Shown: piece by piece, positions 11,402 through 57,674 of the stretch
Numbering within the stretch: the first letter of the stretch is position 1
How the letters are laid out: every line of letters begins with the position of its first letter
Assembly (NCBI GenBank): GCA_051362555.1
Contig: CM120646.1
Coordinates: forward strand, 9,672,001 to 9,736,000
Direction: 5' to 3'
Source of the DNA: Lingula anatina
Lineage: Eukaryota > Animalia > Brachiopoda
Length of the DNA stretch: 64,000 nt
Made by a program: the position numbers and the translations under genes
Notes under the pieces: generated by a model
Seen by the model: the letters and a program-made list of their open reading frames with translations, nothing else
Told to the model about the DNA's origin: nothing
Database searches by the model: none

Positions 11402-11610
11402 TAGTCAGGTGGCTCAGTCCAAATTTTTTCCAGAATTGTGCAATAGATGATAAAAGCATGAAACTTTCCCCGATGAATAACCATTGGGTGTTCATCTATT
11501 TTGGATCAGGGGGTTGACAAACACCCAATGGTCATTCATCGTGGAAAATTTCATGCTGTTATCATCTTTTGCACAATTGTGGATAAAATTTGGACTGAGC
11601 CGCCTGACTA
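11402..11610. mobile_element. 209-bp MITE with ~90-bp TIRs and TAG...CTA termini (Academ-like), nested in HINE family 1
   Basis: TAGTCAGGTGGCTCAGTCCAAATTTT...CCATTGGGTGTT is mirrored by AACACCCAATGG...AAAATTTGGACTGAGCCGCCTGACTA. No clear TSD; superfamily inferred from the termini only. Confidence 0.7.
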
Positions 11611-11611
11611 C

Positions 11612-14434: not shown

Positions 14435-16380
14435 TATGTACAGACACAGATGTGTCTGTACATATTGCCATCACCTGCGTCTGTCGTCGCCGATCATGTC
14501 GCCGTCGCCGTCGCCGTGCACTTTTAGTGATAACACCATAAGTGGAAGACAGTTTTACTTTTTGGCTTTATATTTACAGAGCTGACTAATATTCATAAAA
14601 CGCAGGTCAAGTTCGAAAATCAGCATGATTGGGCCATTATTGTAGAATTTATGCTGTTTTTTTCACTTTTCAGCATATATGCAACACTGTTAACACATTT
14701 CAAGGAAAAGCGATAGGCCTGTTGTCATGAAACTCACAGGAGTAATCAGTCTTACTAAAACGCAGATTAAGTTCGAAAATCGGCATGATCGGGCCACTAT
14801 ATTAGTAGTTATGCTGTTTTTTCACTTTTCAGCATATATGCAACACTGTTAACACATTTCAAGGAAAACCGATAGACCTGTTGTCATGAAACTCACAGGA
14901 GTAATCAATCTTACTAAAACGCAGGTCAAGTTCGAAAATCGGCATGATCGGGCCACTATTTTACTAGTTATGCTGTTTTTTACACTTTTCAGCATATATG
15001 CAACACTGTAAACACAATACAAGAAAAACAGATGGGCCAATTGTCATGAAAGTCACAGGAGTGGTCAATTTTACTAAAATGCAGGTTGAGTTCGTAAATC
15101 AGCATAATCGTGCCATTTTTTTAGAAGGTATGCTGTTTTTTCACATTTCCTCAGATTCAATTTTTAGGCATGTTAACAGTCTCATTATTAAACTAATAAG
15201 ATACGTGAAAGTGTTTGTTTGACATTTCCTACATCTTTACAACATTGTTAGTTGATTTTGTAAAAATGATGGTAAACATGTTATTGTGTATTGTGTAATA
15301 AAGTTTCAAAAATGGAAATAAACTCATATCATTGCAGTTTGTCAGATTCAATCATTCACTATGTTCAGAATCTCAGAATGGAAGCAATTGGACATTTAAC
15401 ACTGCTCTATTGATATTTTTCTCATCTCATCAATTTTCTTAGTTGATCATATAAAAATGGCAGTAAACTGTTAATTTTGTTTTATGTTAAAAATTGTTAT
15501 AAATGGGGAAAAAAACATTTAAGAACAGTGCTGTCTTGTTTACATTTTGGCATTTTCAAGTTGTGACTTTGAAGTTCCATGGGCCTGAAGACCTTTGCTA
15601 GTCACATTTTCTGAATATCCATGATACTAATATTTTATTATTAAAAATTGATGGTCATTATGCTGTTAAACATTATGTAATATTGCATCAAAATTTGAAA
15701 AAAACCTATTTTGGGCACTGCTCCCATGATTACCTTTTAAGAAAAACCATGTCACTTACTGTTCTCAAACTTACAGGAAAGAAACATGGGACTAAAATAC
15801 AGCTTCAGTAGGCAATGCAATCTGCCAGTTAAACAGTTTTTTGTGAAAATTTAATTTTTCACATATTGGCATTTTCAAGGTGTGACTTTGAAGTTCCACA
15901 GGCTTGAAGACCCAGGCTAGTCACATTTTCTGAAAATCCATGATACATATATTTTGTTATTAAAAATTGATTGTCATTATGCAGTTAACCATTATGTAAT
16001 ATTGCATCAGAATAGAAGAAAACACAATTTTGGGTGCTGCTGCCATGATGACCATTATGGGAAAACCATGTTACTTATGATTGCCAAACTTTCAAAAAAG
16101 AAATACAGGACTAAAATGCAGCCTAAGTTGGAAAAGCAGTCTAATTGACTTCTTTTTCTGGAAGTTTTACATTTTCAAAGTGTGAACTTGAACTCCCATG
16201 GGCCTGAAGCCTTATGCTTGTTTCACATTTTACTTACATTGGTATTACCTGTTGAGCATAATTAAAATTTGATGTTGAATTTGCAGTTTAACATAATGTA
16301 CTTTTGCATCAGAATTGACAGAAGCCTATTTTGTTATTTCCTGCTTTTTGTCTGTACATTTGACAGCTTTGCTGCCTTGT
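14435..16380 (+). mobile_element. HINE/Helentron-type element, family 2
   Basis: T|T insertion with no TSD (removal restores CAGATTTTTAT|TATTGTTATGC). 5' hairpin TATGTACAGACAC-AGAT-GTGTCTGTACATA and (GTCGCC)n microsatellite. ~160-bp internal repeats x4 (14601, 14761, 14920, 15080) and ~310-bp repeats x3. 3' subTIR TGTCTGTACAT, short hairpin CAGC-TTT-GCTG, end CTTGT. Confidence 0.9.
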
Positions 16381-34771: not shown

Positions 34772-35109
34772 CTAATTGAATGCCTGATTGCTAAATGCAT
34801 GTCTCCCAGGTGGAAATGAAGTCTCATTCTCACTATCCGCCGAGGCATTAATGTCCTCATTGTCGCCGATGTCTCCTTCCGTGACGTATTTGTTTGCCCC
34901 CACAGATGTCATCTGGTGTGTGTAGGCCATGGGGGACGACCTACGGGGATGTTCTGGCATTGAGCCGACTTTATATTTCTGTCCCCAGATACAGCGATAG
35001 GCAACAACAGCAATAAGGCACACTGCCACCACTCCACCAACTGCGCCTGCGCCGGCCTTGAAGCCCACTGTCTGGTACCATGGTTCTTATGGGGACTTTA
35101 CCACCGTTG
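34772..35109 (-). pseudogene. Last coding exon: TM helix and cytoplasmic tail
   Basis: Acceptor ...TTTACTTCAG. AGAGAVGGVVAVCLIAVVAY followed by basic residues; tail ends FSNQAFN. Premature TAA at 35087-35089. Confidence 0.8.
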
Positions 35110-35827
35110 CTGAAGTAAAGAGAATATAATTTGTTTCATTTACTTGCGGTAATCTTTTTCTGTACATCATCCTCGGTTCATCTTCTTTATTTTTTTCATT
35201 TTTTTTGGGTTATTTTACTTTTTTCTTAGCTTGGCATGTCCCCAAATAGGTTAATTGTAAATATACATGTATATGTTCAGAAAACATACAGGTATTGCAC
35301 GCATAACTAAGGAATTAGTAATACGTGCAAAACGTATTTGAAAAACGTATTATTATAAAATTACCCTATTAGCCTATACATCACTGGGCGTGGAAATTAC
35401 TATTGTGAGGTATGACACATTATGATATGCATCACACCTATTCCTTTTCTATACACTTACTCATATTATAGCGTTACTGATGCGATGCTTTGAAGCTTTC
35501 TATCAAACACAATATTATTAAAATAAAATACATCATAATGATTAAATTAATTCTACTAGACATAACTTCTTGTTTCTTGATGCGTTTTACAAGTCTCTTC
35601 CTGACCAAAGAAGACTTGAAATCGTGACTGCGATACATTTGTTTATTACCAAGACTGATAATGGTTAGGCCACAACCGTCAGAGGAATGTTTGGTGGTGA
35701 AGCGTGGCGAGAGAAAGGAGGATAAATGCTATACAGTACGCAACTTTGACTATCATACAAAACAGAGTGCTCCAGAAGAGCAATCTAGTGCATACAGTAA
35801 ACGGGTGTTTTGTAAGCCTATAGCTAC

Positions 35828-35917
35828 CTTTCTGGTCACAGGCTGTCCCTTCCCAGCCCACAATACACACACAGAAACCGCTGTCACACACACCATTGAC
35901 GCAGGCACCACAGGAAC
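35828..35917 (-). pseudogene. Membrane-proximal EGF-like exon
   Basis: SCGACVNGVCDSGFCVCIVGWEGTACDQ, bounded by AG and GT. Confidence 0.85.
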
Positions 35918-36171
35918 CTGTATGAACCGGAGTGATATTGGCGTAAGTATTGTCACTTGTATTATAATTCAAACCACATCTATATTTATATAAATTATTA
36001 TTATTATTATTATTATTGCACAGAGCAGTGGATGTCGCAGTTTCATAAGGTACATGTTTAGAAACAAAGTGGAAATAGAAAAAAGTGGAAAAAAGATCTT
36101 TTATTTATGATTTTATAATATCCATTAATATTCTCAGTTTTATCAATCAGTTATTATATCTGGTTGTGCCA

Positions 36172-36176
<5 letters not shown>

Positions 36177-36222
<46 letters not shown>
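36177..36222. repeat. (TA)n microsatellite (also (TTA)n ~35995-36017 and (TA)n ~36360-36380)
   Basis: Direct reading. Confidence 0.95.
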
Positions 36223-36225
<3 letters not shown>

Positions 36226-36389
36226 TTTTTTCCAACTCTCTACGTGCTACTAGACTGTGAAACTGCACATGTACAAAGTATGTTAGCGTTTTAATACGGA
36301 ATATTTATTAATTTTTATTTAAGACAGGCAGATAAGGCAAGGAGTGGTGTTGGAAATTCTATATATATATATATATATATTAATACTCA

Positions 36390-38900
36390 CTTAATTCGTA
36401 TGTTTCTTGGTTGGAGAAAGTGATATCTTTCGTGACCACGATGTCATAGACACACTCCTGCAGTAATACGCCCTCCAGTCCTTTCCCCTGACATACCGTC
36501 TCTGCAGCCTGAATATTGGGGTATTGACGGTATAGCATTAAAGAGGTTGCAAATGTTAATGTCACCTACTCGGGCTCATCTTTACACCTCACCGACTATG
36601 CTACTAATTTTGATAATCCAATCATTTGGAATTACCACATGTATCTATTTTCCTTGAATGTACTGGGGTATTTGGAAATAACTTCAAGAGCTTTCTAAAA
36701 CTATGCGGTAATGTAAAGCACAAGTGAAGCAATTACAACAATAAGTGTCCGAGACAACACTACTTTATCAGAAAATAAATCAGATAATAAGTCTTCTTGA
36801 AACAGAGCGGTTTCATATAAAGTATCTAATCAGATTGTTTACCATACGTTTACAGCATAATTCTGTATTGATGTACCAGTGTGACATTGCGTATTTGTGG
36901 TGGACACAGTCATTTTGACCGCAATGGCTATGCGTTATAAATAGGTAAAAGGGCACTGACCTTCATCTCAGCCTGTGACACGTTACAGGGCCGTAGACCG
37001 GATTGTATAGACTGGGGTCGGTGAAGGACGGGTCCATGATGTCATCAGCGTGGAAGTTTGAACTGTCCCAGGACCAACTTCCGTATAATCCAGAACCAGA
37101 AAATGAAGTACTAATTCTCCCTGTGGAGATAACGACAAATGTTTAAAATGTTTTCAAAGGAGCAAATGGTTGAATATTCTTTCTAAACACGCTAAAGAAT
37201 ATTGCATATTAATTACAAGCCTATATACAGTCTACAAACCATATGGTGTTTCATCTCCATACTCTGAATTTCAAGAATAAATATGTAATCAAGCTCATCA
37301 GTACATTGATCATTCTCTCTAATAGTTGCTGTATTATTTTTTCCTTATGACTCACATGACTCGGCATATTCCACTGCATTGTCCTTGGTGACCAGGGTGC
37401 CATTGGCCATGGTGAAATCGTTGTCCTGGTTATCGTCCATCAGCCCGCACAGTCCAGACGTCTGCCCCTTAAAACTGGAAGTTAGACCAGAACGCACGTT
37501 AAGGAAGAGGCGCCCCATCACTGGACTGAACCGGACGTCTACTGTGACAGATACACCTAAGGGGAAATAAAGCGTTGACACAATCAGTGCCAATCACCAC
37601 AGGCGTGAGGAAAGGAAAGGGGTAACTATTCAGATAATGGGAAAAAATTAATGGGACTTTGCTCTGCCGCTCTATATATAGCGGAACACATACCAGTTAT
37701 CAACTCACAGTCTATATCACATCCAGTGGCTATCGTGCATGAGGATATTTTCTTCAAATTACACGCCTTAGGGTGAAATAACATAAATATAACAGTATAC
37801 ATACCGGTGTCATACTGGATTGCAATCATCATCACGGCACCAGTGGCGTTGTTCCTGACTTTAGCAATGTCTACAATGACGGTGTCGTTGTTAAGCGTCA
37901 ATCTTGTGTTGTTTTTGGTTATGCTCTGGACTAGCCCGTCAATTCTAAGTAAAAAAGAATTGTGATCTAAACGTACGTATATGCGTTTTATATGCCAGAT
38001 ATACGGGCTTTTCTATATTACCGAGATTTTCATGGGACATGCAGTAAGACGTCTGCAATGATATCTCATTAATTTCTTAAAACAATACATCCATTCGTTT
38101 CATTGACCATGTGATTGATAAAACAAGTGCAACCATCATGCTGTTTCTTAGATCCAAAGTTTGATAGTATATTTCCCCATTTTATGTCATATTATTCAAG
38201 GCAATATTACTAGTACACTTTCTACATTCCCAATTCACCTTCAAGTAGGAAGGGTGGTCTCAGTAGCATTGGCTGGTGTAGTAATGGTGGCCACACTGTG
38301 GCCGACCTTGACCGCGGCGGCACCGACCAGTGACGCTTGTTTATAGCCAAAGAACCTGACTTGCACGCCAAAGTCGTTAGCTGTACTCATACAGTCCCAG
38401 AACTCTCCGATACCATGGTAGTCGTAGGATATACCTTAGGAAACCACGAATTCTTGCAGTAAGTTATATCATTACTTTAGCAAACATGGTGCACAACGGT
38501 TATTTCATTTCACGGTGATTGCTTTCCTTTGTTTTTCGAGACGGTATGATTAGATCAGGAAATAAACACCGATGCATACTAAATCGCCGAATAATTGCAA
38601 AGAAAAATTATATTAATACTCTCAAATATACACGTATGTTACACATGTGATTCAAAGAGCTGCAGTACATTACGCCTTTCCAAACATTTTGAAAAACATG
38701 TCTAAAGATAAAATGAGTTAAATTCGATGAGAAATGTTGACGATGTTCACCCACCATCTGCTGTCTGTAAGTGAGGATCACCTCCAACGTTTCTGGGTAC
38801 TCTGACATTACAACAGACGCCGGCCCAGAATCGGGAACACACACACCTGGAGCTACAGAAGTACAACTGAGTGGTGCAAACACCATTGCCGAAACATTCT
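36390..38900 (-). pseudogene. Exons for EGF + von Willebrand factor D domain and following Cys-containing segment
   Basis: CFGNGVC...CVCSRFWAGVCC...GGDPHLQTAD|GISYDYHGIGEFW...; FKGQTSGLCGLMDDNQDNDF...EYAES|WR; ECVYDIVVT. These are the GDPH and TxGLCGxxDxxxxND VWD hallmarks. Confidence 0.88.
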
Positions 38901-39147
38901 GAAACACAATAGGGGTGTTTGTAATGTTAAAGGTCCTACCAACGACTGTTTGTATGAATTCAGTGGCTAGATTATAGAACATTTAGCAGACATAAGACAC
39001 AACCAAATAATGAAGTTGATATATAATGATAAATAATTTAAAGGAAAACATTTGTACAAAATAACAAATTGAAAATAAGTGTCTATTTTGCCAGTGAATT
39101 CAAGCCAGCCTATGGTGCATTTACATTTAAATTCGGTGCGATTCACC

Positions 39148-40100
39148 TTGCAACCCGTTGTCCGTCTGTAAACTGCATGGCTCACAGTCTGGCTGGCCAC
39201 ATTGATCTCCACGTCGACCTCGTACACAGGCAGGGTACAGTCCACACTGGGTCTTCTCACGACAAACACAGCGACAGTCTTCCCACACGGGCTCGTAGGC
39301 AGAGTCACACACCGGGCAGCTGTAGAGGCGAAAAAAGTCATCCAAATCAGATGACTTCAGTATTTCAGAAACTTATAGCACGTAACTGTAAATAGTTCCT
39401 TCATTACAAGCATATTTGATAAATTACAGAATATAACAGGTGTCCACGTTTACCAGTATAAGTATATACCTGTCTGTGCTTCTACGTGGGGTGCAGTATA
39501 CTCACATATCATTCGGACAGTAATACGTTCTGTCACTAGTTATAATCGAGTTCTGGCAGTTTTTACATTCACATGAACAATGACAGCCACCATCAGGTTT
39601 ACCGGCACCATAACCGCCATTTGGACACTCACAGCCACACTAGAAATATACACATTGATATAATGGGCAGAAACATAATAACAGTAAAATATGGTTTCAA
39701 GATCGATTGATATACGGATGTCAAAAGCATTAAATCAGTTAAAGTTGTACACAAAAATTCACTAAAATATCAACGTTTTGCCTTGGTTGCATTATTTTAA
39801 AACATAATCAAAGTGATAACAATGATGTCTGGATTGTACTGCGCATAGAAATCATTCGATTCAACCATAATCTTAAATTTTTTTTACTTAAAACCTTCAT
39901 GACAATTTACACAAATACACCATATTTTTTTTGTGAATATTTACATGTACCGCACCTCACACGTGCCGTCTGCGTTCATCTTCCGTGGCCAACCGTACGC
40001 ACAGTGACATGGACACGCAGGCTGAGAAGGGTCATCAGTGATCACCTTTTTAGTTTTACCATCCGGGCACTTGTCACACTGGCAACTGTGGTTATGCTGT
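39148..40100 (-). pseudogene. Small Cys-rich exons
   Basis: SCQCDKCPDG...ACPCHCAYG; CGCECPNGG...CHCSCECKNC; SCPVCDS...CRCVC...CVRGRRGDQCGQPDCEPC. Confidence 0.7.
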
Positions 40101-40619
40101 CAATCATAACCAAATATTAACAATTGGTTCCATATCTTTTAAGAAATATATTAAAATATGACTTTAATATTTATATTACAAAAATTTGCCATCGACCTAA
40201 ATCTGTAAATGTTGTATTTGGTTGCTCGGCCATGAAGTTTGATCACTCACGTTTTGATGTTGAAAGACTAATGGGACTTAGAAACGTATGAACCAACAGA
40301 AAATGTCCTGCAACACATAAACTTATTAGTACCAGTTTTGTTAAGACATTAAAACACAAATGACACAAATCACCTCAATACTATTGCTTCCATCAGGACA
40401 TAGGCAGGTACCGGGTCCAACAGGATACGTGGTGCATGGCTACCGTAGCTGGCCTACAGTGCCTGTAATGTCGGTTAAAATGTATTTCTTAATGATCACC
40501 ATGCAATGCCCTTAATGAATGTACCTAAATTTTGAAAAATAAAGACACACTTAAAAGTTCTAATGAATTGATAAGCTGACGTTCTTAGTTAATTTTTCTA
40601 TAACTTTATGGTAATGCAC

Positions 40620-43600
40620 CTTGGTATTGAAACACCTAACTGTTGGTGCTTGGTCTGAAATACGTGATAAGCACATCGGATACGAAGATGTCAAACACAA
40701 CGGTTCACACACTTACGCAGAAACTTTTACAGAATCAGGAACAAGCACATATTCTTCAAGGCTTGTGAAAATCGAATATGACGCTTCTAAACGAAGAAAC
40801 CCAGCGTCTTTTCTGTACCCCGGCCCCGCCTTGTGGACCACAAGGTGCACGCCCTCACGCCCGGAACAGATCTTAGAACACGTGGTAATGTCCAAACTGT
40901 CCATGATAGGGGCTGTAGTCGTGTATGTGACAGTTTCTGACTGGCTGACAACACCGGGGTCTGAAACAACAATGACATGTTTCCTGCACTCCAACCCCAA
41001 ATTATATAATTAAATTCATTGTATTATTAAGTCGCTGCATCGGTAGCTTAAGTATTTACCGTTACGTTTTCCATATCACGATTTAGTTTAACGACAAGCT
41101 ACAATATTTGTAATAACCATTGTATTCAATACATGCAGGAACAACATGCAAGTTGGCACCGCAGGTACATGTAATTACCTCAAACACCGCCTCCTGTTTC
41201 AGTGATGTAAATATGCCATCAGTGGATATTTGGTTGTTCAGCCGTCTGTCGGGGTGGAAAGCTGTGTAGGGAGCAGACGTCAGCACTGTGTCTTTGTTTA
41301 AGTCCTGGATGGGGATACACTCCAGGAAAATGTAGCCCCCTTTCCCAAACCTTGAAATAACCTGAACAGAAATAGATATCTCTCATGAAGCCCATATAGA
41401 TTATGGAATGCTAAACCTGCACCTACATCTACATCTTCATATTTTTGTTCTATAAAAGTCAAAGTCAAAAGGTGGAACGATTATACATTATATAGTTTTA
41501 ATGTTATATGCTCAATATCAAAATCGGTTCATTTTGCCTTGTTACACAATGCTATATTCTACATGTATTTGCTGCAGAGTCAAATAGTGATATGATATAC
41601 CAGTCAAGTCATCAGTTTACCTGACCGAGATAGGCGCCCGATGTACGTCCTGGAATGACGTCACCTACGACTGGTGGCGCCGTCTCTTGATTCACTGACT
41701 CACTAATGTGCAGGCTTCTGTCATTTTGTTCTCCACCGTGGCAGTACATAGTGTTAGATGTGGAGACAGGAGAGACAGCAATGAGACTAGAAAACACATC
41801 GAGTACGCCAGATGTTATGCCCTTTTCTCCATAAAAATACTAAGTATAAAAGTATGTGCATGTAATAGGGTTAAACATTAAACGGCCAGCCACTACACTC
41901 CTTCCCCCCCCCCCCCCCCAAATGCCGAAAGACGCGAGACCTCAATGGATGGAGGAGGGGAATTATGTTTTCTCACAAGTCGCAACAGAGCACCCTAGCT
42001 CTGTGAATGCACTAGTAGGAGTGTTTGGGGAATTCATCCCGTGCTAGTCAAAAGATATTTGAATTGTTGGCAAAGTTGTGTAAAGTTGAGAAAATGTGAT
42101 TTTAAGATATTTTAATGTTTTAGTCAGAGGAAATAAAAAAGTAAAAGATTGCAATAGTAGTTTTGTCTTTTCTTATAAGTTGCGTATTCAGTCGCGTTTC
42201 CTTAACGTAAAGGTTGCGTGTGCGTGGCTGTATGTGTGTGTGTGTGTGTGCACGTTCACAAGTATAAATTGCTAATGTAATGTGGATAATTTGTATTTTT
42301 TAAATGTAATGTATTTTTGTCATTTAATTTACTTCCGTGTACATATTTTGTAAATATGATTGTGATTGGCGGGACGCCATCATATTTTTGGGGGGACATG
42401 TGTAATAGGGTTAAACATTATTACGAAAGCATTCCCGCCCTTTTGGCAGTCACGTGAGCTTTGTTAGTCACGTGAGCGGGAAATATTAATTACCCGCTCA
42501 ACAGTATCCTTGGGTCATTTTACTCACACTGTCACGTTGGTGTGTATGTATGTACAGGAATAAAGAAGCTGATACTTCTGAGATGCAGTAGATGTTTGTT
42601 GTGATACTCAGTTGCATGCATGTACACATTAAAAATGTACAGAGAAATTTCCTTTGATATTTTACAATGAATATTTCTTTTCAAATTTAAATATGTTTTA
42701 CGTCCTACTGTCGACCAATTATTATCAAAAATTAATTTTGCCGTATCAGTATTCATATTGCAAAGAGACGGCACAGAGTTGTCGTAACCGTTCGACCGGG
42801 ACTGGGAATTTAATATGACGCACTACACATAATATAATGTATGTCACGTTTTGAAGTAACTAAGATGTAGAACAGCAAGTACATGTAGTATACATCGTAT
42901 ACAAATACCACTCACCTAAAAGACATAGCCTGACTACACGTCTTCACTTTGGCGTGCTACGTCACAGACTCAGATTCTGTTACAATATCCTCTAAGTCCT
43001 CGAGGAAGCCCTGACTTTCCCCGCCGACTACCACATCGCCAACATTAATGTGATTTGACGTACTCTGTCGTAGCACAATGTACTGAGACACCACGGGTCT
43101 TATGGTCACATTGTACCAATGTCCAAGACATTTAAAAACATGATCATCTGAAATGAGAAATGAGATATTTTTAACAGCTGTGGTTCACATATTTATCAAA
43201 TGAAAACGTACGCTACTTGTAGTGTAGGGTAAATACTTTATACAAGTAAACATTTCACTCTGTAATTCAACCATTTATATTTATTGTTTATAAATATTTT
43301 TGGGGGGCAATTTAAAATCAGAACTTCAAGAGATTCACCTTTTATCACGTGAACTGAGGAACCTCTAATGGCTTCGCCTTCCCACATGTAGGCAATTTTA
43401 AAAATGCGTTCCTCCGGCACGTGCTCCAGCGTCCTGTCATCCATGAGGGAACGGACAGGAAGCGTTTGGTTAAAGTTGGCATACTGAATGACATCTTCCA
43501 ACTAGGCCCTTACAGCAGCAAAATATCGGTATGTTCCTGAATAAAACGATTGTCAAAGCTGATAAAAACATATAATTCTACGATGTACACGTAGTGGTGT

Positions 43601-44450
43601 ATAATGAATCATGGAGATATTATAAGCCTATTTAAACACGTTTAAAGGGGAGAAAAATCTCGTTTTAACAAAATCTATCATTCATACTTTATATAAATTG
43701 AGACTCAGACATTTTGTCCTAAAATGCACGTTTATATTTTATGCCGATTACTGGTTAAACGCCATGAAGATGCAACTTTTATAAGGAGTAATTTAAGAAT
43801 ACATGTATATTCAGGTTATGGATTAATAAATATGCTACATTAATGTATTAGAAATATCACGGAACTAGAGAACACTACTGACATAATGTCAAGACGTCAT
43901 AAGTTACGTCAGAAAGTATTTGACGTCGTGCAACTAGCCAGGTGTATTTCCATAAATTGTTTCTTTGATTGAAAAATAGTGTTACATGAAGTATAATAAA
44001 CTCACCTTTTTCTTGAGTTGCGTACACTTTATGAATGATTCCTCCGGCTTGCTTGCTGACAATGACAAAATCTTTGGACCTGGGATACTTGACCTTGTCT
44101 CTGGTCACAAGAATGGAATGACCTGACAAATATTATTCAGATAGACGCAAACAAAAATCAGCATGCGTTTTAAATTTTAATTCAATTGCGTGCGAAAAAT
44201 AAAATAGGACTAATAGGAAAATAGGACTACCATGTTCACTGGAATAACTGTATCTGTATCTTGGTGAACTACGGATTAACCTTTGGTACAGAAATAGTAA
44301 AAGGCATTAAACACTTTGTTAATTCTTGGGAATGACGCCACCTGCAGTGCAGCTGTAATACCGCCGACAAACTCTGGAGTCCGGAATGAACTGCCCTACG
44401 GGACACTTTGTTATCTGACGGGGGTAATCAGCAGGGAAAACACTGGGCCT
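40620..44450 (-). pseudogene. Middle exons, domain not recognised
   Basis: Splice-bounded segments ~44122-44006, 43537-43339, 43147-42916, 41775-41621 and from 41361, with the repeated motif DFVIVSKQAGGIIHKV / GDVVVGGESQGFLEDL / GDVIPGRTSGAYLGQV. Confidence 0.65.
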
Positions 44451-44880
44451 TGAAATATTACAATATAAAGTAAAATCGTAACATATTCCCAGTTTTAATG
44501 CTTTTTGGATGATCGAGCCTTTGGAAGCTTAGATTATGTATACATGTATCTTTTATGCAAATATTTTATTTTGTAAATTTTATCGCAATCCATTTATATG
44601 TTCAACTTCAAACTTTTGATTAATTTGTTTTAATTTAATTGTTGATATTATTATCATAAATGTATCATTACTGATATCCTAGCAATATATGCCAAAGGTA
44701 ATTCAAGTAATACAATGATGAAATCACATGAAGCATTATTAAGGTATCGGATCGGTTTTTTCATTTAAAATAACAAAAAAATATCATGATATAACAGAAT
44801 AAAAGTAAAAAAAAAAAAAAAAAATGCAAATATGACTTGTTTTAGCTACACGGCCGTGTCAGTGTTGAAAACTTTCTCAC

Positions 44881-45707
44881 CTGTTTGATAAGAAGACATG
44901 GAATCAATGATTAGATGTATGGAGACCTCTGGGTATGGGAACCCCGTGCCCCTATCTCGTAGCCTCTGCTTGATCTGCGCATGCTCTGTAAGACCCCGCC
45001 AGTTGTAAGAGGCATTTACAGCTGAAGAGGCATTTACAGTTGAAGATGCCCCTTCACTTGTCATCTCGAATATAAATGTAGGGTTTTGGAAGACATTGTC
45101 ATGGAGAAACGATGATCAGCCACCAAAAACTATGGCCGCCATATTGTTTGCATCTCTTGCAATGTTGTAGTATATGATGTTGTCAGTAGTGACGTCACTC
45201 ATGTTCCTATTGGCTGGTTTTGTCCACCACATCACGTGAAGACCCGTGTTGTTGTAGATGTAGTTGTTTGTGACGGTTCCAGACACACCCTCCAGGTGGA
45301 GTACATCACTGTACCTATTTCCCTGTCCGTGTTGTATCACATTCCCATCTATACTGCACTGCTGTGTGTGAGGGCCGTCCTCTATTTCTACCATCTGAAT
45401 GCTCTCTAGCTGGGTTGCATAGAGAACCGCTTATTGTTTTGGAATACGCTGTGAGTCCTAGCGTGGATGCCACCCTGGTTCCCTTCCATGGAATTGTTTG
45501 CCAATGTACCACTAGTGTCAGCGATATTTAGCCGGATAGCCGCTTTGGAATGTTCAGCTCGGTGGGAAGTCGATAGTCCATTTCTGTGAAATATATTTTT
45601 GTTGATGTTTATATCCCAATTACTCTGTCCAAATGTAGTAATGTTCACTCCACCCAGACCATTGTTAAAGAAAGTGTTTTCCTCGATGACCAAGTTGCCG
45701 ATAGACC
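44881..45707 (-). pseudogene. Right-handed beta-helix (PbH1-like) exon
   Basis: Asn-ladder repeats IEENTFFNN, INKNIFHRN, IDGNVIQH, VTNNYIYNN; broken by a frameshift and a TGA. Confidence 0.8.
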
Positions 45708-45896
45708 CTGAAAGACAAACCAAATAGTATTTATTATGAAACGTAAAATATACACGTGCACTTGTATATTAATTAACGACTGTAAATTTAAACTTTATCT
45801 TTAAGAACTCTTACCTATCGATAAAGTCTTTGTATGAATGTCAAGTACCACAATGACATGCTACTAGTACGTGTTTGTGTTAATGTACAGTCTTAC

Positions 45897-48800
45897 CTGT
45901 GGATGTGTCACTGGAGATCTTGATACCAAAGACCATGCTTTGCAAACCATATGTGTCCCAGTTCCTGGTACTGCTATATAACCGGATGGTTACACTGGAA
46001 CTGTTTATTGGAACATCTGAAGGAAGTGAATCGTTTGTCTGGTCAGCATAAAGAAGTCGCCTTAAGAGAAGAGGAGACGATCCTTCGAATATTTCCAGTT
46101 GAAAACGGTACAGATTAAACTGTAAAATTTGGATTGTGATATTCTGTCCAAGTTCAGAACATATTGCACGTGTGCAATAAAAATAATATCCTTCATGCTA
46201 TTTTCCGTCTGAATAAACCACAGTTCTGTCCTTAACAATGAGCATTTTGGAATTTTTTCGCAAATACTACCGACTCCATAAACGTCACTTGGCCATCCTA
46301 CATGTTCTTGTTTGACCCTAGTATTGAGTGGTTCACTTCTTGGGTGAGCCACATGTACAACAGCTTTTATCCCAACACCTCTGTTGTTAAGGAACTCGTT
46401 TCGTTTAATGATGCTGGATTTCAATGCTGGTCCAATTATTTCAATACCGTTCAACCTTGACTGGGCCACTCGTGAGTTCTGTATGATTACACTGGGGCTG
46501 AAAGACTGCACAGCTGCGCCGTACGTGTTTCCTTTGTAACCTGCATTAAAAATGTCTACAAAGAGCAATTCCGAAGGGCTAGTTCTGACTTCATCTGAAG
46601 CAAACGCCAATCCTTGCCAAAAAGAGCAATTAGCTGTTTGGTATTGACAGCCAAAGGCAACCTTTCTCTCTTTTCTCCCCTTGCAACTATCCGTCCCAGA
46701 ACGAGGATCCCTTTGTCCCTTGCTGGCTTAATCCAAACACCAGGTTCAATGAAAACCTCAACCAGGTAAAATAGTCCAATCTTCTTTTAGATAGAACGGA
46801 GAACCTGCTGCTTCTAATGTGATGGACTTGTTCAGCCACCCACCAAGAACGTTTCCTTGTGGAAGCCCCTCCGTGACGTCAGGAGTGTACACCAACTCGT
46901 TCGATCTTGACACAAATGGAAGTACTCGCACTTCTGGTAGCTACATGTCGTTGTGTGCGTCATATATACGTTTTCTCACGCAACGGGTATTTTCACATTC
47001 CCACGTGTTGTATCTGGCTTCAAAGGTGTTTGTCCATTTTGTAGAGCGAGTCTTGACATACAGCTCTGCCTCTAGACCCGGGTTTTGAAGCGTGTTGTTT
47101 TGAACGCAGACATTTCCATAACCATCAAAAACGAGTGCAGCTGACACTGGGGGCTGTGATGACCGTCCTTCGTTGTTGCCGGATGAATAAGTGTTGTTAG
47201 CAATGATATTCCCTACCAGTCCAACGTTTGTTGTTTGGCTTAGGTCATAGGTTGATTTCTCCATATTAATGACGATGAAATTTCTGTAACGATTACCTAA
47301 TATATCATTGTTCACGAATTGTATTGTCTTTTCATATCCCCGGTATAAGTTCATTGACCCAGAGCTGTACTCATTGTCTGTGATGTTATTCCCCGATACT
47401 GTCATATGCAGAGCACCACCGATGTCAAGTACACTCCCTCTGTTATCAATGATTTCGTTATTCAAAAACTGGATGTCCACATCTTTGGGGTTGTCTTCCC
47501 GGACACTGTGTTCCTGGTAATTCTGATCTTACATCCATCAATGGTTAACTGTTCTCGATTTCCACGGTAATTGTCAATATAAATCCCATAGTCATTGGAA
47601 TCTAAGGTCGTATTTCTGATTGAGATGGCGAAAGATGGTAACAATTCATTCACCAGTGGAACATTAGATAATCTTTATAACCAAACATCCATCAGTTTGT
47701 AGTTTCCTACTATAACAGAGTCTTTTATATCAACGCTGACTTGTCCCACATCAGGGTAGTCTGGATGTCTCCTGTCAGTCCGTATTCCATTGGCTTGGTA
47801 TGAGCCATATACTGTTCTGGAGGATCCACTGATTATAACATTGTCCAATGTTAGGCTTGCTTTGTTTGGTGGCAGCTCGTCTGAAAATTACCAATAAACT
47901 TTTACAGCACAGTTTAGTTTTAACCCCAGTTTAGCCGTATCAGAAATCGAGCTCATGCAGAATAGAGAAACATATCCAAGTCGCCTGCATTCTCCGTCCA
48001 GCCATGTTGTCAACATTGGCTCTCTCAATGAAGAATCATAACAAACTGGCAATATGTCTCCGTTTTCTTCTCCGTAAAGTTGTCCATAAAACGATGCCGT
48101 GTTATATGATTGCCATGGCCCTCGAAGTAACGAAAATTTACCAAAATATGTTTTAGATGTGACATTTTTCGTTGTAGCCACCTTTCCCTTGGCGGTAAAG
48201 ATGCACTTCTTACTCTCTGTTCCACTGACATTAAGTCTTCCTTCAATGTACATCCCCACAGAATCTTCAAATGCTAAAACCACTCCTGGTTCTATGGTTA
48301 GTGTGGCGTTGGCTGTCACGTTCAAGTCATGTGTCAACGTGTACGGTCTACCAGTGTCCTTAAGAGTAAGGTCGGTGTTAATGCGGCCACCGAGTGTGTA
48401 GGGAGTTGGCGCTGGGTCCACTTCTATAGTCGCTGGGGACAAACTGGAGAGATCAGACGTGATATAGAACGGAGTGAATAGGAACTCGGTTCTCAGTGTG
48501 TAGCGTTTTGTATTATCGATAATGCCCGAGTAAACACCCTGCGGGTTTGGTGTTCCCCAGTAATTTCGTGACACATCAAGTGTTTTAAGGACGGAATTCT
48601 CGTGCCAAGTGGCCAGTGGATATTCGACCAACAGGTTTTCGAAAACATTGTCAGTGAATGTGAAACTACTTGGAGCATTTATCAAGACCATGACAGCACC
48701 CACCCTATGTCTTTTGTTTTCCGTTCTTACATTGTTGTTTCTAAATTTATTACCAGTCACGAACAAACTGGAGGCAAAAACACAAAGAACACACTTGGAC

Positions 48801-49413
48801 ACGTCATTATCGGATAACATGTTGTTGAGTATTTGGGTGCCCCTGTTGTCAGTTTCTATTACAAAAGCTGCAGTCTCTTTTGTTTTAGAAACCAAATTCT
48901 CATTCACTTGGACGGAACTAAGTTTGTTTGTTCCACATCCATAACCAGACCCCAACATCAGGGCAGTTCCGCTTTGATTGTGAAAGACATTGCCGGACAC
49001 TACGATGTCTGTTAGGGCACACTGTCTAGCATGCGGTACTGATATACCAAATAAATCATCCATCAGGGTATTGTTTTGAAAAATGAAGCAGATTTTATTT
49101 GATGATGTCCACACCGGGCATGTGCCAACAGACAAAGCATAGTTAGAGGAATTAATGAATTCATTGTTCTTCACGGTAACATTCCTCTGGATGTGCTCAA
49201 AGTGCACATGGTTCATGTTATTCACAAAGGCGCTGTCCTGAAGCACAATCGTACCGGATCCCTTACCAACGTACAGACCTGCCTCTGAGGAAAGTGTCAC
49301 ACGAGAGCCTGATATGCGAATTGGATGCAGTTGATTCTCAATAAAAATTCCATATCCGGATGTTGTAACTTTGACGTTATTCAATGATAAACCCCTAGAG
49401 TGTCCTGAATAAG
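45897..49413 (-). pseudogene. 3.5-kb exon: beta-helix repeats, Bark-like repeats 2 and 3, SRCR-like remnant, CUB-like segment
   Basis: ORF-track pieces 47888-49384, 47462-47653, 46941-47480 and 46062-46610 join into one reading across stops and frameshifts. Motifs DVSRNYWG; LGGRINTDLTL..RPY..LTIEPGV..IEGRL; LGGWLNKSITL..GSPF..FIEPGV. Confidence 0.85.
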
Positions 49414-49594
49414 CTGTAAAAATACATACGAGTTTACGTATATTACTTTACGTTACAATAGCACATTCTTATCAAACATTATGACAAGCATGACTTACTA
49501 AGTCATTATGAACTGAAAGTGAAAATGAATTCGATATGCTATGCGATATGTGGAGATGCGCGAAAATACTTTCTTTCACATAATTAATATTTAC

Positions 49595-50686
49595 TCATCG
49601 GCAACGGACTGAACTTTAAACATTCCTTGATATCATTCGCTAGAGTCAATATTTAGTCTTGAAAATGACAGCAAGACTGAGCCGCCAGTTGTGTAGAGAG
49701 GGGACGGCATGTTTACCTCGGCACCGTACATATACACGCTCTTCAGCCACCGGGAGGACGAACTGTTTCCGTCAAATATATTCAGTATGTAACGATTTGT
49801 ATACGAACGTGTTCTTATGTATAGTACGCGCAACACCAAAATATATCCTGGGTTTTGACTTCGAAACACCTATATGATGGAACACAGCAAATTAAAATAC
49901 ATGCAATTTGAAACAAAGTCACTTACGTAACTATAGTATCATCTACACATGTACTCAAATAATGCAACGCTTGATTATTTACTCAAAATGTAAAGATGTC
50001 ATGGTGGTACATGTATGTCCAGAATCTTTTGTGAAATGTTATTTTTCATTATTTTCCAATATAAGCCACGAGCTAATTCCTACATATGGAAAATCAGTGA
50101 GCTATTAAGGTCCAATAAGTATCGAGTTGCCTACCTGAGAACAGGAAGACCTTGACCCCAGATGAAGGTCAGTACTGTCAAAGCTGACTATGAGCGGTTC
50201 TCCATCAGGAACCGTTGTTTCCGGCAGTTGGCACATCTTATATATAGGAGGGCAGCGGAAATAGTCTGTTGTAATATACACCTGCTTTATGGACATTAGA
50301 AATCAGGACATTGTCCAGTGCCAGGTTACCACCATAGCTTCTGAAGGAAACCCCGTTGCCCATGCTGTCCTCAATGTTACTATTGTTGATCGCCGCATGT
50401 CCTGTTATATCTCTGAGTAGAACACCATTACCGATGACATTCGTGATATTCAGGTTATCAAGCACAGGTGGGCTTCCACTAATCAATATGGCTGCCGTAT
50501 CATTTGAATGTGTCCCGATGTTAGGAAGACCAGCAAATTCGATGTCCACATATTGGAGAGCACTTGTTCCTAGTACGGAGGAGTTAGTCGCCAGCTCTAT
50601 ACCAGACCAGTCCTTGGCAGTTTCGTTGGCAATCCCACGATAACCATAGTAACCTGATCACTGCAGCCATACGTCTTGACTGTGAA
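49595..50686 (-). pseudogene. Exons 3-4: end of SRCR, beta-helix, CUB-like segment
   Basis: HSQDVWLQ*...WSGIEL...LQYVDIEFAG...PPVLDNLNI; LNIFDGNSSSSRWL...YTTGGSVLLSF. Confidence 0.75.
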
Positions 50687-52104
50687 CTGAAAAATTAAAC
50701 ATTATGACATGTATATTTTTATCAACTTAGGGAAACGGTATGTGAACAGAACTCGATGTTATTGTTCAGTTTATTTTGTATACAATTGACTCATTTTCAC
50801 TTGGAAGTTGCTAGGTAATAGGAGACAAAACCATTGGAAGACCACAGAGGGACAGGCGGCATTGGTGGCAGCTATTTCAAACTTGTGTGTTTTTACCGAC
50901 GACATATAGATGGTCAAGCAGGTACCGTGGAGAACGAAAAGCAAGTGGACGTGATAATACTGTTAATTAACACATGGTATGCAGAACATTGCAGAAAGGA
51001 TAAAAAACAAAAGGGATTAATACGATTAATACACAACTCCAACAACTACAGCGGTAACATTGTAGTCCATTGGGAACAAAGACGAAAAACAGAGTAACAG
51101 TTTTGAAGAGCTAGGTTCAAACGTTCCAGATAAAATATCAAAACCCAAAGCCCTCGCAAGATCGACTCAAACCACAGCACCACTTGTGAAATGAACAAAA
51201 GGCAGTCTGTTTGAAGAAACTAATGCGCTCTCTTAATATGCCTATTGTGTTTTGCCTCTGAGAGCGCATTCAGAACAGCAGACTGGGAGATGATTCGCGG
51301 ACTAACTGATCCGCCGACAAAATATGGCCGACCCCAATTAAACACGTCTGGTCGAATGGAGCCGAAATTTAATTACTCTGCTCCTGCAGGGACGATGCGT
51401 TGTTACTAACATCAGAAAGACAGACAATGACTGCATAATACTTTATCATTTTGGTTCCCATGCAAAGACATACCCAAGAACAGGGTTACCTAAAGCTAAG
51501 GTGAACAGGGCAGGCCTTTCTTAAGCAAGCTTGTTCCATGCCTGTACGGTATACATTACAGGAATATTACCTCAGTCTACCACTGAATATTTGCCACGAG
51601 AAACCAGTGTTGACGCCCCCTCTCCTGTTAACAACATCCTGGATCTGCCACTATACATATTATAACAGAGAGGTATTACATTACAACCCTTTACAAACTA
51701 CCTGATAAAAATCAAATGGTCGACCTCTTACGTTCCACATCGGTATATAGCACTCATGCCTTTATTGTAAGTAATGTTTAAGAACGTACCAACACTTATC
51801 TGAAACCGACCAGAATGAGCGATAAGATCATGGCGCGAGTGAAATAGTCAAAATTCCATCATCGCATAACACAATATATAGTAGTAAAATAGAATTAAGT
51901 TATTTGTGTTATTTTCCATTCTAGCAGACTTTTGCCCACAGTTCACTTTTTGTCTTTTTCGGTATTAAGTTCTGTCTAACTGTCAAAGAAATTAAGTTTG
52001 TCTTACTTCCTCCGGTTTTCAGGGACGTATCAAACACTGCACAATGAGAACTTTTGCAATAATCACTTACGTACAAGAATGTGATGTTTTGATACCTGAA
52101 TTTA

Positions 52105-52230
52105 CATTATATTCTCTTCAATACATGTGCAAACTTTCTTGTTCGAAATAAAATGGAAAATAAACCACATTATATTCCATTCAATACATGTGCAAATTTT
52201 CATGTTCGAAATAAAATGGAAAATAAACCA
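52105..52230. repeat. 63-bp tandem duplication in an intron
   Basis: TTCAATACATGTGCAAA...TGTTCGAAATAAAATGGAAAATAAACCA twice. Confidence 0.85.
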
Positions 52231-52438
52231 AAAAATCTTTTCTGTGTTTAACAGTGAAAAAAGGCACCTTATTATTATTTTAATTTTTTCGTGACAGATC
52301 ACTCTGAAATTCACCAAACAAAGAAACATCTCTAACACTGGCCTCATGCTATTACAAAAGATTAACACATTTGCAATATCATAGTTCTCAAAAGTAGTAA
52401 ATACATGAATAAAAATAAGAGGTAAGTAAGATACTCAC

Positions 52439-52628
52439 AACAATTGTGTACACGGACCCCATCGTGAGGACAGTCCCAGAGGGAGCTCTCATGTCCATTG
52501 CATCTCACGTCGTTCAGAAGAATACTTCCAGTGCCACTGCCTCTGTTATATACTTTGGTATATAACTCTGTTGTTGAAGTAGTAGTAGGAGCTACCCCAG
52601 CCATTCTGACAAACGGTGCCAAAACTAC
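52439..52628 (-). pseudogene. Exon 2: SRCR domain core
   Basis: FGTVCQNGW... then, after a frameshift, [32 protein letters not shown]. The expected CRQLG-type segment is missing. Confidence 0.88.
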
Positions 52629-54744: not shown

Positions 54745-55114
54745 CTTGGTATAGAAGTTCCAGGCGTCCATGATGATTTTCCGTAAAGTCCCCGGCCAAT
54801 CGGGCACCATCAAACCAAACAGATGACTGGTTATCATCCCTTTCAACATTGGGTAGGTCTGCAGCCGTGAAAAGGATACGTTTGTCCGGTTGTCCCACTG
54901 CCAAAAGCCGTCCCTCAACGCGCACGCCGACAGCAGGGTCGAATTTAACGGTAACGCCAGGTTCTACATTCAGCGTTACCCCTGGCGGGGACTGTGATGG
55001 AATTGTTGACGTGGAACGGTTAATCTGATAAACGTAGCGTCAAATCCTCAGTAGGCGAGGTGTCTATGATAGTATAAGCATTCGAAAGGGCCGAACGAGT
55101 CCCGAAAATTATGA
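54745..55114 (-). pseudogene. Exon 1, 3' part: end of signal peptide, Bark-like repeat 1, start of SRCR
   Basis: IIFGTRSALSNAYTIIDTSPTEDLTLRLSD*PFHVNNSITVP(fs)GVTLNVEPGVTVKF..GVRVEGRLLAVG..ILFT..ARLAG..GRLELLYQG|gt. Confidence 0.85.
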
Positions 55115-57631
55115 ACAATGCAGCAAAGCTGTCAAATGTACAGACAAAAAGCAGGAAATAACTATGCACAAAATAGGCTACTGTCATTTCTGATGCAAAA
55201 GTACATTATGTTAAACTGCAAATTCAACATCAAATTTTAATTATGCTCAACAGGTAATACCAATGTAAGTAAAATGTGTAACAAGCATAAGGCTTCAGGC
55301 ATATGGCAGTTCAAGTTCACACTTTGGAAATGTATAGCTTCCAGAAAAAGAAGCCAATTAGACTGCTTTTCCAACTCAGGCTGCATTTTAGTCCTGTATT
55401 TCTTTTTTGAACGTTTGGCAATCATCAGTAACATGGTTTTCCCATAATGGTCATCATGGCAGCAGCACCCAAAATTGTGTTTTCTTCTATTCTGATGCAA
55501 TATTACATAATGGTTAACAGCATAATGACCGTTAATGTTTAATAATAAAATATACGTATCATGGATTTTCAGAAAATGTGACTAGCATGGGTCTTCAAGC
55601 CCATGGAACTTCAAAGTCACACCTTGAAAATGCCAATATGTGAAAAATTAAATTTTCACAAAAAAAAAAAAAAAACTGTTTAACTAGCAGAAAGAATTAC
55701 CAAACAGACGCATTGCCTACTGAAGCTGTATTTTAGTCCCATGTTTCTTTCCTGTACGTTTGAGAACAGTAAGTGACATGATTTTTCTTAAATGGTCATC
55801 GTGGGAGCAGTGCCCAAAATATTTTTTTCCAAATTTTGATGCAATATTACATAACGTTTAACAGCATAATGACCATCAATTTTTAATAATAAAATATTAG
55901 TATTATGTATATTCAGAAAATGTGACTAGCAAAGGTCTTCAGGCCCATGGAACTTCAAAGTCACAACTTGAAAATGCCAAAATGTAAACAAGACAGCACT
56001 GTTCTGAAATGTTTTTTTTTTAATTTTAACACTTTTTTAACATAAAACAAAATTAACAGTTTACTGCCATATGATCAACTAAGAAAATTGATGACATGTG
56101 AAAAATATCAATAGAACAGTGTCAAATGTCCAATTTCCTCCATTCTGAGTTTCTGAACATAATGAATGATTGAATCTTACAAACTGCAATAATATGAGTT
56201 TATTTCCATTTTTGAAACTTTATTACACAATACACGATAAGAAGTTTACCATCATTTTTAAAAAATCAACTAACAATGTTGTAAAGATGCAGGAAATGTC
56301 AAACAAACACTTTTACTTATCTTATTAATTAAAAAATGAAACTGTTAACATGCCTAAAAACTGAATCTGAGGAAATGTGAAACAAGACAGCACTATTCTG
56401 AAATGGGTTTATTTCCATTTTTAACACTTTTTTAACATAAAACAAAATTAACAGTTTACTGCCATTTTTATATGATCAACTAAGAAAATTGATGAGATGT
56501 GAAAAATATCAATAGAACAGTGTCAAATGTCTGATTTCCTCCATTCTGAGTTTCTGAACATAGTGAATGATTGAATCTTACAAACTGCAATGATATGAGT
56601 TTATTTCCATTTTTGACACTTTATTACACAATACACGATAAGAAGTTTACCATCATTTTTACGTAATCAACTAATAATGTTGTAAAGATGCAGGAAATGT
56701 CAAACAAACTCTTTAACGTATCTTATTAATTAAATAATGAGACTGTTAACATGCCTAAGAATTGAATCTGAGGAAATGTGAAAAAACAGCATATCTTATA
56801 AAATAATGCCCCAATTATGCTGATTTTCGAACTTTTCCTGCGTTTTAGTAAGATTGATTACTCCTGTGAGTTTCATGACAACAGGCCTATCAGTTTTCCT
56901 TGAAATGTGTTAACAGTGTTGCATATATGCTGAAAAGTGAAAAAACAGCATAAATTCTACAATAATGGCCCGATGATTTTCGAACTTGACCTGCGTTTTA
57001 TGAAAATTCATCAGCTCTGTAAATATAAAGCCAAAAAGTAAAACCGTCTTCAACTTATGGTGTTAACGCTGAAAGTGCACGGCGACATGATCGGCGACGG
57101 CGACGGCGACGACAGACGCAGGTGATGGCAATATGTACAGACACATCTGTGTCTGTACATAATAATGAGACTGTTAACATGCCTAAGAATTGAATCTGAG
57201 GAAATGTGAAAAAACAGCATAACTTCTAAAATAATGGCCCGATAATGCTGATTTTCGAACTTGACCTGCGTTTTAGTGAGATTGATTACTCCTGTGAGTT
57301 TCATGACAACAGCCTATCGGTTTTCCTTGAAATGTGTTAACAGTTTTGCATATAAGCTAAAAAGTGAAAAAAACAGCATAACTTCTACAATAATTGCCCA
57401 AACATGCTGATTTTCGAACTTGACCTGCGTTTTATAAATATTTATCAGCTCTGTATATATAAAGCCAAAAAGTAAAACTGTCTTCCACTTATCGTGTTAA
57501 CGATGAAAGTGCACGGCGACGGCGACAGCGACATCGACGGCGACAGGGACGGCGACAGGGACGGCGACGGCGACGGCGACGACAGACGCAGGTGATGGCA
57601 ATATGTACAGACACATCTGTGTCTGTACATA
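55115..57631 (-). mobile_element. HINE family 2 copy with a duplicated 5' head, inserted in exon 1
   Basis: Reverse complement of 14435-16380. 3' end ACAATGCAGCAAAGCTGTCAAATGTACAGACA at 55115; 5' hairpins at ~57132-57161 and ~57602-57631; T|T insertion with no TSD. Confidence 0.92.
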
Positions 57632-57674
57632 AAAAGACGGAGAGTAATTTCCCTCCAACTCCGGTCGATTCCAT
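57632..57674 (-). pseudogene. Exon 1, 5' part: start codon and first half of the signal peptide
   Basis: ATG GAA TCG ACC...CTC TCC GTC TTT T (MESTGVGGKLLSVF) joins in frame to TC ATA ATT at 55114. Confidence 0.75.

What the first reader, a model, noticed from the sequence alone, without database searches (positions are those of the whole stretch)
54745..57674. Rolling-circle element inserted exactly in the signal peptide of the receptor gene
Removing 55115-57631 joins GTC TTT T to TC ATA ATT and restores an in-frame N-terminus, MESTGVGGKLLSVFFIIFGTRSALSNA-YTIIDT, with a hydrophobic core and small-residue cleavage region. The same boundary rule (element T...T, T|T target, no TSD) independently restores the satellite at 14435-16380. 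The ORF track does not show this split start. Whether the insertion caused or followed gene death is inference.
Basis: partly seen in the sequence, partly recalled or inferred. Interest (0 to 1): 0.8.

Follow-up and report, generated by a model that had tools for sequence, protein, structure and literature searches.

The report
Two-headed rolling-circle insert in dead gene
A 2.5-kb non-coding element, built like known rolling-circle (Helentron-type) transposons and carrying two start ends, splits codon 15 of the predicted signal peptide of a broken membrane-protein gene copy, likely from a brachiopod, that was likely already dead; this is ordinary transposon biology.

Summary
Removing 55115-57631 rejoins codon 15. 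The result matches annotated Lingula anatina paralogs (24/27 and 25/27 residues). Contigs of 4 of 4 DNA runs show the uninterrupted junction, but the pieces shown are paralog-like. The insert has the HINE/DINE-1 (non-autonomous Helentron, HLE2) layout: 11-bp subterminal inverted repeats, 5' hairpin, microsatellite, internal tandem repeats, TT target. Three corrections. (1) 'No TSD' is not shown: every junction reads TT-core-TT, so a TT duplication fits equally, and the ends slide by at least 1 bp each way. (2) The element is a composite with a second 5' end at 57161, joined at an internal T|T site, as described for Fusarium Helitrons. (3) The rejoined frame stops at codon 46; about 15 other lesions lie in 1,876 codons (7 checked against close paralogs, 8 inferred). 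The insertion more likely followed gene death than caused it (about 85:15), but rough clocks overlap and contigs cannot settle the order. New family of a known kind. Published Lingula annotation lists only 16 kb of Helitron, while this window holds 7.4 kb in two families.

The parts
57632..57674 (-). 5' piece of exon 1: start codon, codons 1-14 and first base of codon 15 (n-region and first half of the h-region)
55115..57631 (-). Non-autonomous HINE/DINE-1-type element, 2,517 bp, same sense as the gene; ends can slide 1 bp either way
57602..57631 (-). Outer 5' end: 30-nt palindrome holding the 11-bp subTIR (57620-57630) and its inverted partner (57603-57613)
   Evidence: (z -4.1, 0 of 200 shuffles fold as well)
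57513..57581 (-). 6-bp-unit microsatellite, 11.5 copies
57162..57631 (-). Outer 5' module (470 bp): 5' part of one family member, ending at an internal T|T site
57132..57161 (-). Inner (second) 5' end, same 30-nt palindrome; start of a complete element
55980..56791 (-). 401-bp internal tandem duplication (about 6% substitutions between copies), single in the other copy of the family
55136..55146 (-). 3' subTIR, 11 bp, perfect inverse of the 5' subTIR, 21 nt from the 3' end
55119..55134 (-). Weak 3' stem-loop (4-bp core stem), not beyond chance
   Evidence: z -1.1; 30 of 200 shuffles fold as well
54745..55114 (-). 3' piece of exon 1: rest of the signal peptide (predicted cleavage after residue 27), first module, start of SRCR; stop at 55020-55022, one extra base near 54987; GT donor follows 54745
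44885..52628 (-). Further exons scored for lesions (SRCR, beta-helix modules): stops at 50660, 49635, 47677, 46943, 45118; frame changes near 52562, 50240, 47530, 46762, 46645, 46200, 45420; inferred large deletion at about 47906
34775..44528 (-). Likely 3' exons of the same gene: VWD, C8-like, EGF, a hydrophobic stretch and a tail; linkage to the 5' exons is inferred from strand and order; not scored for lesions
14435..16380 (+). Second copy of the same family (1,946 bp, one 5' end, 160-bp repeats x3.5), inserted at T|T in a 194-bp subunit of a higher-order repeat array

Best explanation
A non-coding element with the HINE/DINE-1 layout and two 5' ends sits at a TT site inside codon 15 of one copy of a multi-copy bark-beetle-like gene; it was likely moved by a rolling-circle (HLE2/Helentron) transposase, likely after this copy had already lost function. 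Shown: the split codon, the paralogous empty sites, the element anatomy, two 5' ends joined at an internal T|T, and further breaks in the gene. Inferred: one family member first inserted into another at that internal TT; a partner transposase then started at the outer 5' end and stopped at the first 3' end, moving outer head plus inner element as one unit (the model drawn for Fusarium Helitrons). If transcribed, the filled allele would give a 61-residue peptide that has lost half of its hydrophobic core, so the insertion alone would be a null; but it is one of about 16 such lesions.
For: Paralog N-termini. Empty junction in contigs of 4 of 4 runs (also X7). 11-bp subTIRs 1 nt and 21 nt from the ends in both copies, 5' hairpin, microsatellite, tandem repeats, longest stop-to-stop frame 114 aa with no Pfam hit. 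TT at the gene site and the array site; the inner head sits where the other copy reads TT. High copy number: the bin with 26 bp of element end has 17-25 times the summed depth of the next bin in 3 of 3 DNA runs (not a copy number). Published features and model: PMC4067079, PMC2374699, PMC5148889, PMC11417382, PMC7492417. Order: 6 stops, 8 frame changes and 1 inferred deletion in 1,876 codons; if all 16 lesions are equally likely to be first, the insertion has about 1 chance in 16.
Against: No autonomous partner was seen, so the rolling-circle mechanism rests on structure. The 3' stem-loop is no better than shuffles. The clocks overlap: stops give 0.026-0.034 substitutions per site since death (95% range 0.01-0.07), and the two element copies differ by 0.042-0.082, i.e. 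at most 0.02-0.04 each, so the element may be as old as the death. No empty allele of this copy and no shared lesion in an empty paralog was shown. 8 of the 15 lesions are inferred without a close homolog, and some indels could be assembly errors (the extra base near 54987 lies in a base run and is in no contig shown). The two heads could also come from nesting here followed by recombination between the 3' halves.
Confidence: 0.72

Rival explanations
1. Same element class, but the insertion was the first, gene-killing hit: it removed the signal peptide of a working receptor copy, and the other lesions came later.
For: The insertion alone is a null: first stop after 61 residues, five AATAAA signals inside in gene sense. 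The element's age ceiling (0.02-0.04) overlaps the time since death (about 0.03). All empty-site contigs listed lack the codon-46 stop.
Against: About 15 competing lesions. The element age is a ceiling, as two copies may come from different source elements. The empty-site contigs differ from the window by about 6-13% on the gene side and are best read as paralogs, so they do not order events in this copy. Annotated close paralogs also look truncated (213-1,256 aa), which suggests weak constraint on the family.
Confidence: 0.13
2. The two-headed structure formed at this locus: a plain element inserted first, a second one nested in it, and recombination between their 3' halves removed one tail.
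For: The end product is the same sequence; the two heads differ by about 8% in the block compared, as expected for two separate family members.
Against: Needs two insertions plus a recombination at one spot, against one move of a ready composite. Multi-head copies moved as units are documented in Fusarium (PMC5148889). I could not count the junction elsewhere.
Confidence: 0.1
3. The element is a MITE-like cut-and-paste derivative that duplicates TT on insertion.
For: Both sites read TT-core-TT; DINE-1 was once read this way (PMC2374699).
Against: The 3' inverted repeat lies 21 nt inside the end; the 5' palindrome includes the terminal T; one tail with two heads fits strand-displacement logic; DINE-1-like elements were tied to Helentrons with no target modification found (PMC4067079).
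Confidence: 0.04
4. The filled junction is an assembly artefact joining a repeat to exon 1.
For: No contig in 4 of 4 runs covers the filled junction (depth 0 at 55118-55128) or carries the window's own letters at five exon-1 positions.
Against: Both junctions are base-exact element ends at a TT inside one codon with nothing lost. These contigs drop low-depth variants and show presence, not absence. Contigs with 0-1 differences to the window's introns exist in 3 of 3 runs.
Confidence: 0.01

Closest known systems
DINE-1 / HINE non-autonomous Helentrons (PMC2374699, PMC4067079; passages read, and section 6 of the latter whole)
   Same: SubTIRs, inverted partner beside the 5' subTIR, microsatellite, central tandem repeats, no coding frame, TT target, T-count ambiguity at the ends.
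   Different: 11-bp subTIR (13 in DINE-1, 12-15 in mite); a near-perfect 30-nt 5' palindrome; 6-bp microsatellite unit; weak 3' stem; larger (1.9-2.5 kb); no partner identified.
Cg_HINE elements of the Pacific oyster (PMC7492417; passages read)
   Same: 11-12-bp subTIR, IR, microsatellite, 140-180-bp central repeats, T-rich targets, in a lophotrochozoan.
   Different: Here several unrelated internal repeat blocks (160, about 320-345 and 401 bp). Sequence homology to Cg_HINEs was not tested.
Multi-5'-end FoHeli (Helitron2) of Fusarium oxysporum (PMC5148889; passages read)
   Same: Several 5' termini with one 3' terminus, explained by self-insertion and restart at the outer head.
   Different: The extra head is 470 bp here (typically under 200 bp there); animal host; movement as a unit was shown there by many loci and is only inferred here.
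Bark beetle/Anakonda-like SRCR and beta-helix membrane proteins (RefSeq names of P0001, P0046, P0047, P0053)
   Same: Signal-peptide-like start, repeated beta-helix modules with SRCR, likely single membrane span.
   Different: Only about 23-29% identical to the beetle protein over the longer matches; the C-terminal exons hit VWD and EGF; a multi-copy, decaying family rather than a shown ortholog.

Membership tests
HINE/DINE-1 (non-autonomous HLE2/Helentron) | 11-15-bp subterminal inverted repeats, asymmetric | tested here: met
   11 bp, perfect, 1 nt from the 5' end and 21 nt from the 3' end in both copies
HINE/DINE-1 (non-autonomous HLE2/Helentron) | Inverted partner next to the 5' subTIR forming a hairpin | tested here: met
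   13-bp stem, z -4.1 and -4.2, 0 of 200 shuffles each
HINE/DINE-1 (non-autonomous HLE2/Helentron) | Microsatellite, then central tandem repeats | tested here: met
   6-bp unit x11.5; 160-bp unit x3.5 in the second copy; 401-bp x2
HINE/DINE-1 (non-autonomous HLE2/Helentron) | Stem-loop downstream of the 3' subTIR | tested here: inconclusive
   4-bp stem in both copies at the expected place, z -1.1 and -1.3
HINE/DINE-1 (non-autonomous HLE2/Helentron) | No coding capacity | tested here: met
   Longest stop-to-stop frames 114 and 84 aa; the 114-aa frame has no Pfam hit; no Rfam hit
HINE/DINE-1 (non-autonomous HLE2/Helentron) | Insertion into TT | tested here: met
   Gene site, array site and internal site, 3 of 3; TT or AA makes up 11-13% of dinucleotides per strand
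HINE/DINE-1 (non-autonomous HLE2/Helentron) | No target-site duplication | tested here: inconclusive
   TT-core-TT at both full copies; a TT duplication fits equally
HINE/DINE-1 (non-autonomous HLE2/Helentron) | Autonomous RepHel partner sharing the subTIR (endonuclease domain separates Helentron from Helitron2) | not testable with these tools
   No genome is held; no such frame was seen among the window's frames of 100 aa or more (only part of them scanned)
Canonical Helitron (HLE1) | 5' TC, 3' CTRR, A|T target | tested here: not met
   Ends are TA... and ...TGT, target T|T
MITE (cut-and-paste) | Inverted repeats terminal at both ends | tested here: not met
   3' repeat is 21 nt inside the end
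Secretory signal peptide | Hydrophobic core, small residues at -3/-1, mature domain follows | tested here: met
   Best 9-residue hydropathy 3.16 at residues 10-18 (paralogs 2.59-3.39); S-N-A at 25-27 kept in 5 of 5 paralog proteins that include the start. Rule-based only.
Secretory signal peptide | Trained predictor or N-terminal sequencing | not testable with these tools
   No such predictor was available
Bark beetle/Anakonda ortholog | Same C-terminal architecture and one-to-one orthology | tested here: inconclusive
   tblastn with the beetle protein finds no hit better than E 1.6 below position 44,900; exons there hit VWD and EGF; no tree was built

The most novel reading that the evidence does not exclude
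A two-headed Helentron derivative made by self-nesting moved as one unit and, by landing in codon 15, was the first hit that killed a working receptor copy; it belongs to a large, so far unannotated HLE2 load in brachiopods that prunes an expanded SRCR receptor family.
Probability: 0.1. Interest if true: 0.5.

Novelty: new member of a known kind. Interest (0 to 1): 0.24.

Why it matters
Modest. It gives a base-exact, empty-site-verified HLE2 insertion in coding sequence, and an animal example of the two-head structure that supports 'start at the outermost 5' end, stop at the first 3' end'. It also points to under-annotation: the 2015 Lingula supplement lists 16,472 bp (0.004%) of Helitron (one table row seen), whereas three such elements fill 7,353 bp of this 64-kb window. 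My searches found no paper describing Helentrons in brachiopods, but Repbase, Dfam and the 2026 genome's deposited repeat library were not checked and may hold these families. An element in an already broken gene copy has no functional consequence.

Tried and rejected
No whole genome was held, so no copy census, consensus or partner search. The 30-nt palindrome had 0 matches in metagenome contigs. No RNA holder was listed. One RNA run (X12, about 6 in 100 read) put no reads on the exons at 90% likeness, paralogs included; I draw nothing from it. The filled junction and the window's own exon-1 letters were uncovered in 4 of 4 runs; contigs drop such variants, so this is not read as absence or polymorphism. 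At 50658 part of the depth in X3 and X7 did not show the paralog letter, but rows were cut, so a shared stop is only a lead. The boundary scoring did not discriminate (ties); exact-equivalence tests replaced it. One search had three frames mis-set (19 stops); one search is the corrected count (6). No full-length close paralog was found; the closest is 1,256 aa. dN/dS was not possible without paralog DNA. Look-ups of earlier findings by place and by sequence were blank. No structure or complex prediction was run, as none bears on the claim.

Full report
Setting. The window is AT-rich animal DNA; no whole genome is held. A minus-strand gene runs from 57674 to about 34775. Its 519-aa frame at 47891-49447 is 81% identical to P0001, named 'protein bark beetle' of Lingula anatina; further Lingula paralogs came. 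That the window is from Lingula or a close relative is inferred from these matches. Pfam gives beta-helix repeats, SRCR (on the paralogs), VWD, a weak C8 and an EGF domain, and a hydrophobic stretch lies near 35,000, so 'receptor-like membrane protein' is reasonable; the link between 5' and 3' exons is inferred from strand and order.

The split start is real. Excising 55115-57631 rejoins codon 15; sliding both ends by one base gives the same product, and the other lengths tried shift the frame. The 14 upstream codons match P0001 at 13 and P0047 at 12 positions, against 6 for the next best place in the window. Over the 27-residue leader the match is 24 and 25. The best 9-residue hydropathy window (3.16, residues 10-18) spans the junction, and S-N-A at 25-27 is kept in all five paralog proteins that include the start. 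No trained predictor was available. In DNA, contigs that leave the window at 55115 and continue with the far flank occur in 4 of 4 runs (at most 4 samples, 3 studies); X1, X2 and X3 each have one with 31 or more letters on both sides, and in X3 the 30 far-side letters shown equal the window's. These contigs differ at 3-13 letters on the gene side (8 of 120 in X3, 8 of 91 in X1), so they are best read as paralogous empty sites, not as an empty allele. The family is multi-copy: among the contigs listed, paralog-like ones reach depth 416-754, and those of 150 bp or more with 0-1 differences lie at 38-179.

The element. In gene sense it begins with a 30-nt palindrome (13-bp stem, z -4.1), followed by a 6-bp microsatellite and 160-bp repeats. 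An 11-bp inverted repeat lies 1 nt from the 5' end and 21 nt from the 3' end in both copies. The 3' stem-loop is in the expected place but weak (z -1.1 and -1.3). There is no long frame and no Pfam or Rfam hit. This is the layout given for DINE-1, mite HINEs and oyster Cg_HINEs (PMC2374699, PMC4067079, PMC7492417; passages) and HLE2 elements insert at T-T (PMC11417382; passages). The bin holding 26 bp of the element's end has 17-25 times the summed depth of its neighbour in 3 of 3 DNA runs, which points to many copies but is not a count. No autonomous partner was seen, so Helentron versus Helitron2 is open.

The boundary rule. Removing 14435-16380 restores a 194-bp subunit, with five equivalent boundary pairs. 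Both sites read TT-core-TT. 'No TSD' is therefore a convention, not a result; the same ambiguity is set out for DINE-1, and no target modification was found for mite HINEs (section 6 read whole). The palindrome includes the first T, which mildly favours the T...T reading.

A second identical palindrome starts at 57161. The outer 470 bp align with the 5' part of the family and stop exactly where the other copies read TT. So one member inserted into another at T|T, and only the inner tail is present. Fusarium Helitrons show several 5' ends with one 3' end, explained by nicking at the outermost head and stopping at the first tail (PMC5148889; passages). That is the most economical reading here; recombination in place gives the same sequence and is not excluded.

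Cause or consequence. The filled allele would stop after 61 residues. But the rejoined frame itself stops at codon 46 and shifts near 54987. In 1,876 codons between 55112 and 44885 I count 6 stops, 8 frame changes and one inferred deletion of about 260 codons at 47906. Seven of these are checked against close paralogs (contigs also lack the extra bases near 54987 and 50239); eight are inferred from frame switching or distant homologs. Exons below 44885 were not scored. With 16 lesions the prior for 'first' is about 6%. Stops give 0.026-0.034 substitutions per site since death (95% range 0.01-0.07, simple neutral model). The two element copies differ by 0.042 over 832 bp at the 3' end and 0.06-0.08 elsewhere, a ceiling of 0.02-0.04 per copy. 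The ranges overlap, so I raise 'cause' to about 13-15%. Against my reading: no contig shows the filled junction or the window's letters at 55022, 55037, 55048, 55050 and 55070 in any of 4 runs; such contigs drop variants, so neither order nor polymorphism is settled.

Novelty. A second HINE-like family sits at 10652-13541, also at T|T, with paralogous empty sites inside the window. The three elements total 7,353 bp; the 2015 Lingula supplement lists 16,472 bp of Helitron genome-wide (one row seen). Searches for Lingula with Helitron, for brachiopod with Helentron or rolling-circle, and for Helentron with signal peptide and pseudogene gave no paper on this (listings only). The HELIANO main text does not mention brachiopods. 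The 2026 genome paper has no Helitron hit in its text or in 3 supplementary files held; its repeat tables and deposited library may not be among these and could already contain the families. PMC6716108 and PMC8006247 on Bark proteins were seen as search listings only. One earlier scan finding from another genome describes a self-nesting pile of similar elements (unchecked). Verdict: real, correctly reconstructed, a new family of a known kind in a decayed gene copy; interest 0.24.

Noticed in passing
window 10652-13541 (+): A second, unrelated HINE-like family, 2,890 bp: 12-bp subTIRs (11/12 match), 5' hairpin, short microsatellite-like stretch, 146-bp repeat x11.9, clear 6-bp 3' stem-loop, ends CTAG plus T. 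Inserted at T|T; excision reproduces a paralogous unit at 45/45 letters.
   Followed up: partly
window 1-21750: Higher-order tandem array: a 540-bp spacer (94-100% alike, about 10 copies) alternating with 2-7 copies of a 194-bp subunit; some units nearly identical (17505, 18450). No clear reading frame in the spacer. Could be a short repeated exon in repeat-filled introns; unexplained.
   Followed up: partly
window about 52700-54250, intron 1: Fragment whose translation (53227-53562, minus) resembles the tail of a LINE reverse-transcriptase frame (recalled; no Pfam hit). A contig in X3 skips 52824-54243, so related copies or alleles lack it.
   Followed up: no
window 59028-59734 and 59982-60690: Two 79%-alike inverted stretches of about 700 bp around decayed frames that resemble a Tc1/mariner transposase (recalled; no Pfam hit).
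   Followed up: no
window 51288-51336: A short high-copy motif with very high contig depth and many RNA reads that run on into unlike sequence; probably the end of another repeat.
   Followed up: no
window 50658: In X3 and X7 part of the depth does not show the paralog letter at the second stop; if it is the stop, sister copies share it and death would predate the insertion. Rows were cut.
   Followed up: no
P0001, P0046, P0047, P0053, P0054: All close Lingula paralogs found are short (213-1,256 aa) or partial, while relatives in other animals reach 2,000-7,000 aa; the family may be largely decayed or mis-annotated.
   Followed up: partly
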